From Pecten maximus (lineage: Eukaryota): a DNA stretch of 64,000 nt. Shown here one piece after another: positions 6,001 to 18,000 of this stretch (the first letter of the stretch is position 1; every line of letters begins with the position of its first letter). The stretch lies in contig NC_047018.1 of NCBI RefSeq assembly GCF_902652985.1, positions 13,454,001-13,518,000 of the forward strand, in the 5' to 3' direction. The position numbers are program-made.

Positions 6001-9000
6001 ATAGATGGCAATTAAAATTCTAATATTTTGTATATGTATACATCTATATCCAAATACACATATACGTGTTCAGAATGTCAGATCAGCATGCATATGCTTC
6101 CTATCAGTAGAAAATATTAATGTTGACAAGTAGGGTACCTGTATCAGCATGTCATGTAATTTAACTTGTGACCTCTCTAAACTAGAATAAATAGTAAAAT
6201 GACTTGTGTTTTGGACGTGTGTCGTATCTATGCGATGCTGTATGGACTGACAGGAACACTTACTATTCCGGAGCTCTCCGAGGTCGATAATATCACTATT
6301 TCACAATATTACAAAACAAAATGTAAAATATACACAAAGTTTTATTACTAAGATCAATAGGTAACATAAATGATATCAACATGATTTGGTAAATACTACA
6401 CTAATTCATAGAATTGTAGATTTTCTATCTAGAAAACACACTTTAAAATGCTGAATTTTATATAATCACAAAAGGGTTGATGTCTTGTGGTTTACACACT
6501 AATAACAGTCGTATCCACTTTACCAGAAAATACATTTGTAATAACCAGCTTACAAATGTAGGTAATTTGGATGGATTATCTTGATCGCTTGCTTGAGTTA
6601 ATAAAGGCGTACCATTTAATTTCAGTTATTATAATATGAACGCTGTTACAAACAGTGGTATACAGATATATATAATATAATAGTTGATAAGATCAACAAT
6701 GCATGTTATAAAATGTGCATGCGAGAATATACAGAGGCATGAAAGTATTCATAATATGTTGATGAAATTTGGTTTGATTGAACAATAATTATATATATAA
6801 TCATAATAAAGTACTTATTCAGAGACGCGAGCTCAATTCGAGAGGGTGATTATCTTGCACAGTAAGACAACTTTTATCATGTCCAACCTCGGTTAATGTT
6901 GTATCTTTTGTATGGGGATTTCTGGACTGAGAAACAGAACTGTTAGATAAAGTAGGGTCTAATATTGTATGACCTCTCGATGAATTAATGCCCCTTTTCT
7001 TGTATGCAATATAGAGTTCGTAAACCCTCTTATTGCATACAAACGAGAGCATGATGAACACGCCTTGTCCAGCGAGCAAAACGATAAATAGATATACAAA
7101 AACATCCTGATTGAAAATTTCAGCAATAAAACCAAACAGCCAGGCCACTCCTGTCAGAGTTGAAAGCTTTACATAAATTAAAAATCGTTTCGAGTGATGG
7201 CGACAGGTTGAGGACCTGGACATATCCGGAAGCTGGCTGACTTTAACTATTACAATACAGAACATTACAATATTTGCTACAACGAGTACCATAACCGGTA
7301 GTGTGAAACTATACAATAGAGCATTCGTGTCGTTAATAAAACATATCCGGATTCCGTAACCAGACCTTCCGTTAGTTACGACGCTGTACACACTTCGACC
7401 CAGGACGAATAATGCGCTGCCGCCGTAACTGTAAACAAGAGATATTACAAAATGGCGTCTTTTTTCTTCCTCTGTCAAAACGTATTGCCTGTCTAAATGA
7501 TTAAATACGCGGAACATATGTATTGAACATACGTTCATGATAAATACACTTGCTAACATTGTCAAATGGATTGTAATTCCAAATACTTCACACAAGAAAC
7601 CGATCTTGACAGCACCGGCTCCAAAGGTAAACAGGACATGAGCGACAGTCAGTGTTGCGCACAAAGCCATTGTGAAAAGTCCAGGAAGTGTCCTTAAAAC
7701 TGGAAACAGAATATACGTTACCATAGTTACGATAAGACATATAACTGACAAACTTGAACACACGAGAGACACTAATACTTTACCTAAATCTTCTTCACGT
7801 GAAACAATGTTATCTGGCAAATGAGATGCAAAAAATGTATCTGCACAAATCAGGACAGACGACATATCGTCAGAGAAGATGCATTTTTCTGGCTGAAAAC
7901 AGGAGTTATGCATATCAAAGCACACCTTGTTAGAGTGACGTGTTACATTATAATCATTCAGAGATATGTTCACATGTGGACATAAAAAGGTTGGTACCAA
8001 CCGTGATACCCACGGTTTGAAAGGACAATAGCTAATTTCATCATAAGTTTCAATATTCATTTTATCTCCATTTGAAGGATCTCTGTATTGTCTGTCTAGC
8101 GGAAATACTATCCTAAATTTGTTGGAACTAGATTCGAACTCATAAAAATTACCGCCAACTACTTCCGGTTTTAAGTCAGTACAAAGCAAAGGTCCTGTAT
8201 TGGTTCCGGATTCAATATGGAGCGCAGATGTATCCAGAAGGTTCTCTGCTACTTCCTTGGGATCGTGGTAATCTTGCACAAAGAGTTCCACGTGAATGAC
8301 TAGATAGTCTGTATTGATTATTGTCTCACTGGAACAGTTGTTACTAGGAAACAGGACAGTTAAACCACAGACATATTTATAATAACCAATAAGTATCAAG
8401 TGCGTTTTCACATATTCCTGGATCAGACGAGGTGTAAGGCGAAGACACAGGTCACAATTCGTATGGTAGGATGGCAATGTATTGAATCTAAGGAACATCT
8501 CGTATCTCTGCGAAGCTACATTGCTGAAGGCATTTTCACACACTCCATTGCTGTATCTGAACGGTGGTGAGCAGGTGATCTCGCGGCAAATGTTCTGTAA
8601 CATAAATACAATGATGCAATATACGGGTTTGCAACAGTCAGTAGTCAGTTAATATCGGGATATTATACATCTTTAATTCAACTCTGCCTTTTTTACTCGG
8701 TAAAAAAAGGAACTGGTAAAGTCGACGTCCGCACTCCCCCACCCCCCAGCTCATGTATTATGTCTCTTGAGATATCTAAAATGAAATGCATATCCATTCT
8801 ATATAGCCCGTTTTACAAATATTTTCGATTTACAAATATCACCGTCGGTATCAATTATCCGGCCTTTATCGGTATAATATCTCCGGCCTATATCGGTATA
8901 ATATATCCGGCCTGTATTGGTATACTATCTCCGGCCTGTATCGGTATAAGATCTTCGGCCTGTATCGGTATAATATCTCCGGCCTGTATCGGTATAAGAT

Positions 9001-15000: not shown

Positions 15001-18000
15001 TAAATTTGACACGTATAAGGTAAGGACGTTAGTGCTCTTATCAACAGAACTTTACAACAAATCTTATTCATGGGTGATACTGATAAATTTTGTCAGAGGA
15101 ACACATTGTTTTCTGGGGTTATAATGGTAGATTTTGTCAGAGGAACACCTTGTTTTCTGAGGTGATAATGATAGATTTTGTCGCAGGAACAAATGACATT
15201 CTTGGGTGATATGATGATAGGTTTTGTTGTAAAAGCAAATGTCTTTTTGAGGTGATAATGATAGGTTTTGTCTGATAAACAAATATCTTTCTGGAGTCAT
15301 AATGATAGATTTTGTCTGAGGGACAAATGTAAATTGTATATTGAATTATTACCTGTACTATACGAATAGACGTTCCTTTTCAACCAGTATTACATTTTAT
15401 ATATGTCACGTTCACCAGACAACTGACAATTGACGTGCATACAGTGCTCACTTGTATCAGTTGGGGAGATAAAGGCCAATTACATCCAATACCTGTAATA
15501 TGAACAACTTCAATTTAGCGTATTGCGGGTACAATCCACTAGGCTATTATATAATGATTATCCTTGACAAGAGAATATCTAAACGGTCAATTTACAAATA
15601 ACTCGTCACTCCCGTCTACTTCTGTTGATTTTGTCAAGGTTTATTTGTAATACACTGCACTTATATTTCAACACTGAATGATATATATAATTAATAGGGC
15701 TAACGTCTAATCCAATTCTCTGTCAATAAAAAATAACATATTTCCTCACACACGTGGTGTAAAAACCGCACGGGTCATTTATATTCCGGGTGTTCACACT
15801 TTTCAATTGAATACGTAAATTATTATAACTAGAAACAGATTAATGCGTACCTATTTCATATATTGTTTATAGAAGCTGATATGTGTGCACTTCTGTACTA
15901 AAGACTATTTTTTAATTATATTACAGAATATTTGCCGCGAGATCACCTGCTCACCACCGTTTAGATACAGCAATGGAGTGTGTGAGAATGCCTTCAGCAA
16001 TGTAGCTTCGCAGAGATACGAGATGTTCCTTAGATTCAATACATTGCCATCCTACCATACGAATTGTGACCTGTGTCTTCGCCTTTCACCTCGTCTGATC
16101 CAGGAATATGTGAAAACGCACTTGATACTTATTGGTTATTATAAACATGTCTGTGGTTTAACTGTCCTGTTTCCTAGTAACAACTGTTCTAGTGAAACAA
16201 TAGTCAATACAAGCTATCTAGTCATTCACCTGGAATTCTTTATACAAAATTTCCATGATCCCATTGATGTTGCCAGGCGTTTCCTTAACCCATCTGTATT
16301 TCTGCCTGAATCACTTGAAGGAGTTACTGTTTGTATTGACTTAAAACCAAAAGTACTTGGCGGTAAATTTTATGACTTTGAATATGGTTTCAGCGAATAT
16401 GATTACGTTTATCCACTAGACAGACAATACAGAGATCCTTCAAATGGAGATAAAATGAATATTGAAACTTATGATGAAATTAGCTATTGTCCTTTCAAAC
16501 CGTGGGTATCACGGTTGGTACCAGCCTTTTTATGTCCACATGTGAACATATCTCTGAATGAATATAATGTAACACGTCACTCTAACAAGGTGTGTTTTGA
16601 TATGCATAACTCCTGTTTTCAGCCAGAGGAATGCATCTTCTCTGACGATATGTCATCTGTCTTGATTTGTGCTGATACATTTTTTGCGTCTTATTTGCCA
16701 AATAACATTGTTCCACGTGAAGAAGATTTAGGTAAAGTATTAGTGTCTCTCGTGTGCTCAAGTTTGTCAGTTATATGTCTCATCGTTACTATGGTAACGT
16801 ATATTCTATTTCCAGTTTTAAGGACACTTCCTGGCCTTTTCACAATGGCTTTGTGCGCAACACTGACTGTCGCTCATGTACTGTTTACCTTTGGAGCCGG
16901 TGCTGTCAAGATCGGTTTCTTGTGTGAAGTATTTGGAATTACAATCCATTTGACAATGTTAACAAGTGTATTTCTTATGAACGTATGCTCAGTACATATG
17001 TTCCGCGTATTCAATCATTTAGACAGGCAATATGTTTTGACTGCGGAAGAAAAAAGACGCCATTTTGTGATATCTCTTGTTTATAGTTACGGCGGCAGCG
17101 CATTATTCGTCCTGGGTCGAAGTGTGTACAGCGTCGTAACTAACGGAAGGTCTGGTTACGGAATCCGGATATGTTTTATAAACGACACGAATGCTCTATT
17201 GTATAGTTTCACACTACCGGTTATGGTACTCGTTGTAGCAAATATTGTAATGTTCTGTATTGTAATAGTTAAAGTCAGCCAGCTTCCGGATATGTCCAGG
17301 TCCTCAACCTGTCGCCATCACTCAAAGCGATTTTTGATTTATGTAAAGCTTTCAACTCTGACAGGAGTGGCCTGGCTGTTTGGTTTTATTGCTGAAATTT
17401 CCAATCAGGATGTTTTTGTATATCTTTTTATCGTTTTGCTCGCTGGACAAGGCGTGTTCATCATGCTTTCGTTTGTATGCAATAAGAGGGTTTATGAACT
17501 CTATATTGCATACAAGAAAAGGGGCATTAACCAAACGATTTCGAGAGGTCATACAATGCTAGACACTTCTTTATCCAACAGCTCTGTTTCTCAGTTAAGA
17601 AAACCTCATACCAGAGAACCAACGATATCGACTGAGATTGACACACACTGCCATTCTGTGCGAGATAACATCCCTCTCGAATTCAGCACGAATCTCTGAC
17701 GACGTTAAGCGTTATTTTGGTACATTTTAAATGTGTGCTATCGCCTTGACGGCACCGGTAACTTAATTATGACGACACCTTTAGTAAAAATATCATTAGT
17801 TAACCAACAAAAGTTGTAACACACCCTGTGACCTTGAATATGATTCAAGGTCTTTTCTTCGCAGACTTTTTCAAGCCTGTCTTAGGAACCTGCCAGTCAA
17901 ATGCCATGACTATCCATCGTATCCATGGTTTCTTTGTTTTTATCGCCAGGGTCATTTTGAGGAGGGGGGTCTGATTGTAATAGTTGGTGATTACTTCACA

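What the first reader, a model, noticed from the sequence alone, without database searches (positions are those of the whole stretch)
6819..17699. Head-to-head GPCR pair with exon-limited near identity and sharply bounded divergent islands
Seen: A and B are almost identical over most coding DNA, including synonymous sites, while their introns and flanks show no similarity by eye beyond the splice signals. Divergence is concentrated in three islands: the end of exon 1 (B ~14795-15019), an exon-2 ectodomain patch (B ~16210-16412, A ~8100-8310) and the C-tail. Inference: an old inverted duplication is being homogenised by gene conversion while selection protects specificity regions, as in immune and chemosensory receptor families. 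A simple recent duplication or haplotype artefact would also share introns.
Basis: partly seen in the sequence, partly recalled or inferred. Interest (0 to 1): 0.72.

Follow-up and report, generated by a model that had tools for sequence, protein, structure and literature searches.

The report
Scallop receptor gene pair kept alike
Two neighbouring, oppositely oriented receptor genes of the king scallop are an old duplicate whose coding parts have been repeatedly copied onto each other, except for three patches that have stayed different; this is a clean but ordinary example of a well-known process.

Summary
The window is Pecten maximus. Gene A (minus; LOC117325290) and gene B (plus; LOC117325291) are head-to-head, two-coding-exon, adhesion-like class-B GPCR genes 2,340 bp apart. 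Three coding tracts (about 0.8, 0.27 and 1.1 kb) are 96.6-97.4% identical with uniform dS 0.09-0.11. Three islands have dS 0.42-1.5. Introns and flanks align no better than shuffled sequence.

The decisive test was region-specific trees with Argopecten irradians and Ylistrum balloti proteins. In the conserved tracts the two Pecten copies group together, and so do the two Argopecten copies. In island 1 Pecten A groups with one Argopecten copy and Ylistrum. There the A+B clade is rejected (p-AU 0.013).

So the duplication predates the Pecten/Argopecten split and the exons evolve in concert by interlocus gene conversion.

It is plausible for island 2, which has long homology on both sides and omega 0.84. 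It is unnecessary for island 1 and the C-tail, which abut non-homologous DNA.

This is a new member of a known kind, of moderate interest. No orthologous DNA, reads or population data could be examined.

The parts
6819..8594 (-). Gene A (Pecten maximus LOC117325290), coding exon 2 including the stop: ectodomain part, 7TM and C-tail
   Evidence: ORF and AG acceptor; Pfam 7tm_2 E 1.7e-14; the database protein P0002 contains this translation
8595..10585 (-). Gene A intron, phase 0, 1,991 bp, holding a 24-bp minisatellite at 8845-9523
   Evidence: GTAAGT..TTACAG; TRF 28.5 copies; no alignment to the B intron above shuffles
10586..11629 (-). Gene A coding exon 1: signal peptide and Cys-rich ectodomain
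   Evidence: homologous family of 928 representative clusters
11630..13969 (.). Head-to-head spacer, 2,340 bp, holding a 53/158-bp minisatellite at 11919-12695. It is not shared between the two sides apart from about 30 bp before each ATG
13970..15019 (+). Gene B (LOC117325291) coding exon 1
   Evidence: exon-wise match to database protein P0001, 100% over exon 2
15020..15926 (+). Gene B intron, phase 0, 907 bp, holding a 44-bp tandem repeat at 15072-15329
15927..17699 (+). Gene B coding exon 2 including the stop
13970..14794 (+). Homogenised tract 1 in B (partner A 10817-11629): 96.8% identical, dS 0.112, dN 0.014
   Evidence: similarity starts about 30 bp upstream of the ATG; species-wise tree 100/98
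14795..15019 (+). Island 1 in B (partner A 10586-10816): 57.8% identical, dS about 1.5, dN 0.48. It encloses the conserved TSFAALFNFI motif (the 31-bp match)
   Evidence: cross-species A-type/B-type grouping; low pLDDT for residues 296-350
15927..16199 (+). Homogenised tract 2 in B (partner A 8322-8594): 97.4% identical, dS 0.090
   Evidence: species-wise tree 91/88
16200..16415 (+). Island 2 in B (partner A 8100-8321): 69.0% identical, dS 0.46, dN 0.38, omega 0.84, one 6-bp indel
   Evidence: tree unresolved
16416..17519 (+). Homogenised tract 3 in B (partner A 6996-8099): membrane-proximal ectodomain and 7TM, 96.6% identical, dS 0.113
   Evidence: species-wise tree 100/100
17520..17696 (+). 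Island 3, cytoplasmic C-tail in B (partner A 6822-6995): 78.0% identical, dS 0.42, dN 0.22, with indels
   Evidence: pLDDT about 30; weakly species-wise (1,856 of 2,000)
23509..26573 (+). Third, distant paralog C: ORFs 23509-24564 and 24873-26573, with an intron at the same phase-0 position. It shows that the intron is ancestral to the family
   Evidence: tblastn 27-30% identity; 7tm_2 E 4.2e-16; splice sites

Best explanation
A and B descend from an inverted duplication that is older than the split between the Pecten and Argopecten lineages. Since then, interlocus (ectopic, intrachromosomal) gene conversion between the two inverted copies has repeatedly overwritten three coding tracts. That keeps them at a low, uniform synonymous divergence of about 0.1.

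Conversion needs homology. Introns, UTRs and the spacer had already diverged past recognition through substitutions, indels and minisatellite growth, so heteroduplex tracts now end at or near exon edges.

Three exonic patches have escaped:
- Island 1 and the C-tail each lie against non-homologous DNA, so they lack homology on their outer side.
- Island 2 lies between two converted tracts. It is most likely kept apart by selection against converted haplotypes, by its own accumulated mismatches and indel, or by both.

Shown: old age, mosaic dS, tree discordance, unalignable introns.
Inferred: the molecular mechanism (DNA-templated conversion), that it is repeated or ongoing rather than one burst, and the cause of island escape.
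For: 1. Mosaic synonymous divergence. Background dS is 0.112, 0.090 and 0.113. The islands have 1.5, 0.46 and 0.42. Same-residue codons differ in 47 of 681 versus 33 of 106 (p 3.7e-11).
2. Concerted pattern. Four-taxon informative sites for (PmA+PmB | Ai4+Ai5) versus the two other splits are 28:1:0, 16:1:0 and 40:1:2 in the conserved tracts. ML support for each species' pair is 91-100, and cross-species pairings are rejected at p <= 8e-4.
3. Island 1 shows discordance. The split {PmB, Ai_P0004} | {PmA, Ai_P0005, Yb_P0003} has support 98/96, and the PmA+PmB clade has p-AU 0.013. The BLOSUM quartet favours the cross-species pairing in 2,000 of 2,000 bootstraps, and in 1,998-2,000 of 2,000 under four other MAFFT settings. 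Ai_P0004 scores 99 with PmB against 24 with its own paralog.
4. Introns and 3' flanks are indistinguishable from shuffled sequence, while a control at 45% divergence is still detected. The intron is nevertheless ancestral, because paralog C has it at the same phase-0 site.
5. Both copies are intact and under purifying selection in the converted tracts (omega 0.12). Derived amino-acid changes are split evenly between A and B (9 versus 11, 5 ambiguous).
6. The Argopecten pair shows the same three divergence minima and maxima: 64, 81 and 76% identity in the tracts against 37, 43 and 30% in the islands.
7. The pattern is precedented. A review of Caenorhabditis paralogs states that conversion is usually reported for exons, that fast-diverging introns may impede it, and that it occurs between adjacent inverted paralogs (PMC3966223, passages read).
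Against: - No GC3 rise in converted tracts (0.391 versus 0.357, p 0.21), so the biased-conversion signature used elsewhere (PMC2720389, passages) is absent.
- Cross-species orthology is shown for island 1 only. Island 2 is a tie (931 versus 918 of 2,000), and the C-tail leans species-wise (1,856 of 2,000).
- PmB's own nearest relative in island 1 is Ai_P0004 only weakly (1,203-1,679 of 2,000). The ML tree there has 71 columns and odd near-zero branches, and I named the groups after seeing the alignment.
- A region-restricted word search with B's island 1 returned P0002 and P0005 but not P0004 (3 hits among 7 candidates).
- All orthologue comparisons are at protein level. No orthologous DNA was available, so no GENECONV-type test with outgroup nucleotides was run.
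- The uniform background dS is also what a single time-point would give.
- Whether the Argopecten genes are also head-to-head is unknown.
Confidence: 0.8

Rival explanations
1. Recent, independent duplications in the Pecten and Argopecten lineages (age about dS 0.1 in Pecten). One copy then diverged fast in the three islands under positive or relaxed selection. The island-1 tree is a long-branch artefact, and the introns were replaced by indels and minisatellites.
For: The background dS is strikingly uniform (0.09-0.11; permutation 1,724 of 2,000), as one event would give. Islands 2 and 3 give no cross-species orthology. PmB is nearly equidistant from all others in island 1. Introns carry fast-evolving minisatellites. 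Islands are also the least conserved parts between species.
Against: Selection on protein does not raise synonymous change at codons whose residue is conserved, yet these differ in 13 of 35, 9 of 35 and 11 of 36 island codons against 47 of 681 in the background. At dS 0.1 the non-repeat part of the introns (about 1.3 kb in A, 0.65 kb in B) should align at about 90%, but the score equals shuffles while a control at 45% divergence scores five times higher. Ai_P0004 is far closer to PmB (99) than to its own-species paralog (24), and PmA is closer to Ai_P0005 and Yb than to PmB (1,976 of 2,000). PmA+PmB is rejected at p-AU 0.013.
Confidence: 0.07
2. Homogenisation is templated by spliced transcripts (RNA- or cDNA-templated repair) rather than by the paralogous DNA. 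That would explain why similarity stops at exon edges.
For: At both testable 5' exon edges, similarity ends within 17-30 nt of an acceptor or acceptor-like site (TTACAG before exon 2, TTTTCAG 7 nt before both ATGs). What is shared beyond the exon is only splice-signal-like sequence.
Against: Both genes keep the ancestral intron, so no tract ever crossed the exon junction. Islands inside exons are not explained by a transcript template. Ordinary DNA-templated conversion bounded by non-homology predicts the same edges and is the documented mechanism (PMC3966223, passages). Similarity does run a few bases into the intron.
Confidence: 0.06
3. Assembly or polishing artefact: reads from one copy were cross-mapped, or two haplotypes were mis-joined, creating artificial near-identity in the exons.
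For: None from my calls. It cannot be excluded without reads.
Against: The tracts are not identical: 70 NG86 differences in 730 aligned codons, evenly spread, with omega 0.12. That is an evolutionary signature, not a polishing one. Both ORFs are intact. Each copy's island 1 has its own closest counterpart in Argopecten. An inverted arrangement with unrelated introns is not what a haplotig join gives.
Confidence: 0.02

Closest known systems
Concerted evolution of adjacent paralogs by interlocus gene conversion limited to coding sequence. Examples: C. elegans col-12/col-13 and the inverted hsp16 modules, as described in the review PMC3966223 (passages read). Mammalian BMP8A/B is an inverted pair (PMC2720389, passages read)
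   Same: Paralogs are more alike than orthologues over defined tracts. Flanks, and here introns, are fully diverged. The copies are close together, in inverted orientation. Unconverted regions reveal an older duplication.
   Different: In the mammalian pairs the positive fragments span both introns and exons, and GC3 and intron GC are raised. Here no intron sequence is shared and GC3 is not raised. Here one converted gene holds an internal 216-bp unconverted patch.
Receptor families in which conversion homogenises some domains while others stay distinct. Example: paired opposing leukocyte receptors, KLRC/NKG2 (PMC3210942, search listing and abstract only). RHD/RHCE and opsin examples are recalled, not checked
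   Same: A mosaic of homogenised and persistently different receptor segments within paralogs.
   Different: In those cases function and ligands are known and selection has been argued from data. Here the ligand, expression and function of both genes are unknown, and omega in the islands is at most 0.84.
Adhesion (class B2) GPCRs such as latrophilins (ADGRL) and ADGRG2
   Same: The 7TM is 7tm_2. The best solved relatives by sequence and by fold are adhesion GPCR 7TM domains: ADGRL3 E 1.2e-12, and Foldseek top hits ADGRG4, CD97, ADGRG2 and ADGRL3 with TMt 0.7-0.8. One orthologue fragment is labelled 'Latrophilin-3' by its source.
   Different: No GAIN or GPS domain was detected. No HL/T cleavage motif precedes TM1. 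The N-terminal Cys-rich ectodomain belongs to a separate large family without a solved fold.

Membership tests
Concerted evolution by interlocus gene conversion | Paralogs within a species are more similar than orthologues between species over defined tracts | tested here: met
   PmA/PmB are 95-98% identical in protein against 62-76% to Argopecten and Ylistrum. The species-wise clades have support 100/98, 91/88 and 100/100 for Pecten, and 99/97, 95/95 and 99/96 for Argopecten.
Concerted evolution by interlocus gene conversion | Another part of the same genes keeps cross-species orthology, which shows that the duplication predates speciation | tested here: met
   Met for island 1 only: split supported 98/96, PmA+PmB rejected at p-AU 0.013, and 2,000 of 2,000 quartet bootstraps. 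Island 2 and the C-tail are unresolved or species-wise. Protein level only, 71 columns.
Concerted evolution by interlocus gene conversion | Synonymous divergence is heterogeneous along the genes, with bounded tracts | tested here: met
   dS is 0.09-0.11 in the tracts against 0.42-1.5 in the islands. Fisher p 3.7e-11 on same-residue codons.
Concerted evolution by interlocus gene conversion | Non-coding sequence outside the tracts is diverged in keeping with an old duplication | tested here: met
   Intron and 3'-flank local alignment scores were reached by 76 of 100 and 82 of 100 shuffles.
Concerted evolution by interlocus gene conversion | Raised GC3 in converted tracts (GC-biased conversion). 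This is supportive, not obligatory | tested here: not met
   GC3 is 0.391 in the tracts and 0.357 in the islands, p 0.21.
Concerted evolution by interlocus gene conversion | Direct traces of conversion events: polymorphisms shared between the paralogs, or tracts seen in population or pedigree data | not testable with these tools
   No reads, second haplotype or population data were available.
Adhesion GPCR (class B2) | Secretin/adhesion-type seven-transmembrane domain | tested here: met
   Pfam 7tm_2 E 1.7e-14 and 3.6e-15. The 20 PDB sequence hits at E<=0.001 are all adhesion GPCRs. Foldseek top hits are adhesion GPCR 7TMs.
Adhesion GPCR (class B2) | GAIN domain with a GPS autoproteolysis motif (HL|T/S; the motif is recalled) directly before TM1 | tested here: inconclusive
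   No Pfam family in the 288-residue exon-2 ectodomain even at E<=10. A weak alignment (E 0.013) places ...ICADTFFAS... on the pre-TM1 stalk of an ADGRG2 chain, but without HL-T. The ectodomain model has only moderate confidence.
Exon-1 Cys-rich ectodomain family (labelled PF28443.1 in the protein database; not in the local Pfam copy) | Significant sequence match to the family and conserved Cys framework | tested here: met
   928 representative clusters at E<=1e-3 and 435 at E<=1e-10. 15 invariant columns, 12 of them Cys, in a 65-sequence alignment. Short exon-1-like proteins carry the label PF28443.1. What Pfam calls this family I could not see.

The most novel reading that the evidence does not exclude
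The exon-exact limits of homogenisation reflect transcript-templated repair: spliced RNA of one paralog serves as the template for repairing breaks in the other. Two ancient A-type and B-type cassettes around the conserved SFAALFNF motif are held apart by selection across scallop genera. The evidence does not exclude this. At both testable 5' exon edges similarity ends within 17-30 nt of an acceptor-type site, and A-type/B-type island 1 is shared between Pecten and Argopecten.
Probability: 0.06. Interest if true: 0.8.

Novelty: new member of a known kind. Interest (0 to 1): 0.38.

Why it matters
It shows that the sequence similarity of this scallop receptor pair badly understates its age. A dS-based date of about 0.1 would be wrong by at least one genus-level split. 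The same caution applies to dating the many lineage-specific receptor 'expansions' reported in bivalve genomes.

It also marks out three short segments that have stayed different while everything else was homogenised: a linker around a conserved SFAALFNF motif, a 72-residue ectodomain patch, and the C-tail. These are the obvious places to look for functional differences between the two receptors.

The mechanism itself is textbook. The receptors' ligands and roles are unknown.

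Tried and rejected
- Biased-conversion signature: GC3 in tracts versus islands was not significant.
- Cross-species orthology in island 2 and the C-tail: unresolved or species-wise.
- Strict identical-residue quartet counts in the islands are too few to decide: 0:2:1, 1:1:4 and 0:0:1.
- Search for more orthologues or split fragments with exon 1 of A: only 4 distant hits at E<=1e-20 and no further scallop sequence.
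- Search for third-party proteins carrying a B-type island 1: 3 hits among 7 candidates, namely B itself, A and Argopecten P0005. This is weak evidence, and Argopecten P0004 was not returned.
- Fold of the exon-1 ectodomain: the model is good for residues 30-295 (mean pLDDT 81.8), but 0 PDB matches at E<=0.001.
- GAIN/GPS: no Pfam hit and only a weak stalk alignment.
- Pecten/Argopecten divergence date: the glass-scallop genome paper (PMC13212745, passages only) gave only the Propeamussiidae/Pectinidae date, so I give no date.
- Literature: no paper holds the two LOC identifiers or PF28443 (0 papers). Nine papers hold both 'gene conversion' and 'Pecten maximus'. Judging by their titles and abstract openings (search listing only), none concerns this locus.
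- Promoter sharing in the spacer and 5'UTR exons were not examined for lack of transcript data.
- Complex prediction and the protein-atlas search were not used because no claim needed them.

Full report
**What is there.**
- The window contains no N and is king scallop, Pecten maximus.
- The translation of exon 2 of gene B is 100% identical to NCBI 'uncharacterized protein LOC117325291' (940 aa). That of gene A matches LOC117325290 (949 aa). It is not human sequence.
- The joined (spliced) step was left out throughout. The full-length database records were printed once but not searched with.

**Gene models.**
- Gene A (minus strand): coding exon 1 10586-11629, a 1,991-bp phase-0 GT..AG intron, and exon 2 6819-8594.
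- Gene B (plus strand): exon 1 13970-15019, a 907-bp phase-0 intron, and exon 2 15927-17699.
- The ATGs face each other across 2,340 bp.
- Seven bases upstream of both ATGs lies TTTTCAG, which looks like an acceptor, so a non-coding first exon may exist (inference).
- Exon 2 carries a 7tm_2 domain. Its closest solved relatives by sequence and by fold are adhesion GPCR transmembrane domains.
- Exon 1 encodes a Cys-rich ectodomain from a large family: 928 representative clusters at E<=1e-3. The protein database labels it PF28443.1.
- That ectodomain has no match in the local Pfam copy and no PDB fold match (0 at E<=0.001), despite a confident model for residues 30-295.
- A third paralog, about 30% identical, lies 6 kb downstream. 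It has its intron at the same phase-0 position, so the intron of A and B is inherited, not gained twice.

- blastn with word size 7 finds similarity between the two loci only over coding sequence, plus the last 17-30 bases before each coding exon.

| Region | B coordinates | nt identity | dS | dN | omega |
|---|---|---|---|---|---|
| Tract 1 | 13970-14794 | 96.8% | 0.112 | 0.014 | 0.12 |
| Island 1 | 14795-15019 | 57.8% | about 1.5 | 0.48 | 0.31 |
| Tract 2 | 15927-16199 | 97.4% | 0.090 | 0.009 | 0.10 |
| Island 2 | 16200-16415 | 69.0% | 0.46 | 0.38 | 0.84 |
| Tract 3 | 16416-17519 | 96.6% | 0.113 | 0.013 | 0.12 |
| C-tail | 17520-17696 | 78.0% | 0.42 | 0.22 | 0.52 |

(All values.)

- I placed the island borders from amino-acid divergence, so I tested synonymous change only at codons that encode the same residue in both genes. 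The codon differs in 47 of 681 background codons and 33 of 106 island codons (p 3.7e-11). Each island is individually significant.
- Within the background the differences are evenly spread (permutation 1,724 of 2,000).
- The introns and 3' flanks align no better than block-shuffled sequence (76 of 100 and 82 of 100 shuffles reach the observed score). A control intron mutated at 45% of sites plus 5% indels still scores five times higher.
- Both introns and the spacer carry minisatellites.

**The decisive test.** The protein database holds two Argopecten irradians proteins (P0004 and P0005, on one contig), one from Ylistrum balloti (P0003) and a Mizuhopecten fragment (P0006). I cut them at the homologous exon boundary and aligned them with the window's exon translations.

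In the three conserved tracts:
- Sites uniting the two Pecten copies against the two Argopecten copies outnumber the alternatives 28:1:0, 16:1:0 and 40:1:2.
- ML trees give both species' pairs support of 91-100, and every cross-species pairing is rejected (p <= 8e-4).

In island 1 the tree flips:
- {PmB, Ai_P0004} separates from {PmA, Ai_P0005, Ylistrum} with support 98/96, and a PmA+PmB clade is rejected (p-AU 0.013).
- A BLOSUM quartet statistic favours the cross-species pairing in 2,000 of 2,000 column bootstraps. It does so in 1,998-2,000 of 2,000 under four other alignment settings, and in both halves of the island (2,000 and 1,904 of 2,000).
- The signal comes mainly from PmA being nearer to Ai_P0005 and Ylistrum than to PmB (1,976 and 1,975 of 2,000), and from Ai_P0004 being far nearer to PmB (score 99) than to its own paralog (24).
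- PmB's own preference for Ai_P0004 is weak (1,203-1,679 of 2,000).

Elsewhere:
- Island 2 is a tie (931 versus 918). The C-tail leans species-wise (1,856 of 2,000). Together with their intermediate dS, this suggests they escaped homogenisation later than island 1 (inference).
- The Argopecten pair has its identity minima at the same three places.

**Interpretation.**
- An old inverted duplication with concerted evolution of most coding sequence is the only reading that accounts for four results together: low uniform dS in the tracts, saturated dS and cross-species grouping in island 1, parallel substitutions shared by paralogs within each species, and inherited but unalignable introns.
- The documented mechanism is interlocus gene conversion. 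The Caenorhabditis review I read in passages says that conversion is mostly reported for exons, that fast-diverging introns may block it, and that it occurs between adjacent inverted paralogs (PMC3966223).
- That tracts end at exon edges follows from the need for homology (established knowledge; the step is inferred here).
- The uniform dS of about 0.1 fits either a mutation-conversion balance or a common time at which conversion stopped. I cannot tell which.

**What is not shown.**
Omega is at most 0.84.
- Island 1 and the C-tail border non-homologous DNA and are low-confidence, probably flexible segments in the models. A purely mechanical barrier is enough to explain them.
- Island 2 is the exception. 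It is 216 bp between 273 bp and 1,104 bp of near-identical sequence, so conversion tracts should be able to cross it (recalled knowledge of conversion across short heterologies). Its persistence with omega 0.84 hints at selection, but accumulated mismatches and a 6-bp indel could also act as a barrier.
- GC3 is not raised in the tracts.
- No orthologous DNA, reads or population data could be examined.

**Rivals.**
- Recent independent duplications with rapid island divergence: contradicted by the synonymous test at conserved residues, by the introns and by island 1.
- Transcript-templated conversion: predicts the exon edges but not the in-exon islands, and is not needed.
- An assembly artefact: does not fit evenly spread differences with omega 0.12, nor private introns. 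It still needs reads to close.

**Novelty.**
- No paper in the searchable library names these genes or PF28443 (0 papers).
- Nine papers hold both 'gene conversion' and 'Pecten maximus'. Judging by their titles and abstract openings, none is about this locus.
- The phenomenon is well known, so this is a new, tidy member of a known kind.

Noticed in passing
window 23509-26573 (+): A third, distant paralog (27-30% amino-acid identity, 7tm_2 E 4.2e-16) with its intron at the same phase-0 site (YDRYK | DVCRNMTC). The locus is therefore a small cluster of this receptor family.
   Followed up: partly
window 13970-15019 (+) and 10586-11629 (-): The exon-1 Cys-rich ectodomain belongs to a large family (928 representative clusters at E<=1e-3), labelled PF28443.1 in the protein database. 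It has a confident AlphaFold model for residues 30-295 but no PDB fold match. Two of the long family members scanned against Pfam also showed a Somatomedin_B match; one passed Pfam's cut-off and the other was below it.
   Followed up: partly
window 14913-14943 (+) / 10662-10692 (-): Inside island 1 sits a 10-residue motif, TSFAALFNFI. Apart from T/V at its first and I/V at its last position, it is unchanged in all five scallop proteins. It is conserved family-wide as SFxALLxF. From memory it resembles the tethered-agonist TxFAxLM of adhesion GPCRs, but it lies about 290 residues before TM1, not next to it. Its role is unexplained.
   Followed up: no
window 11630-11659 (-): The NCBI model of gene A (P0002) starts 10 codons upstream of the ATG it shares with B. 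An acceptor-like TTTTCAG lies between the two ATGs, so the annotated start of A may be wrong.
   Followed up: no
window 2207-5909, 8845-9523, 11919-12695, 15072-15329, 18823-19952, 38886-40575, 41444-42465, 46240-47768, 50083-55815: Many long minisatellite arrays (units of 20-62 bp, up to 171 copies). They explain the strand-skewed stretches in the composition profile. The arrays in A's intron and in the spacer share a CGGTATAAT core.
   Followed up: partly
window 33744-34601 (-) and 57776-58933 (+): Two open reading frames with a CABIT domain (E 1.3e-10 and 2.7e-07). They are probably exons of two further paralogous genes.
   Followed up: no
Argopecten irradians proteins P0004 and P0005: The Argopecten pair is much less homogenised than the Pecten pair: 64-81% against 95-98% identity in the conserved tracts. 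It has its divergence maxima at the same three places. Concerted evolution thus seems to run at different strengths in the two lineages.
   Followed up: partly
Ylistrum balloti protein P0003: Only one Ylistrum protein was found. It is A-type in island 1 but nearer to Pecten B than to Pecten A in island 2: 37 of 69 against 30 of 69 identities. It could be a mosaic, the second copy could be lost or unannotated, or Pecten A's island 2 could be fast-evolving.
   Followed up: no
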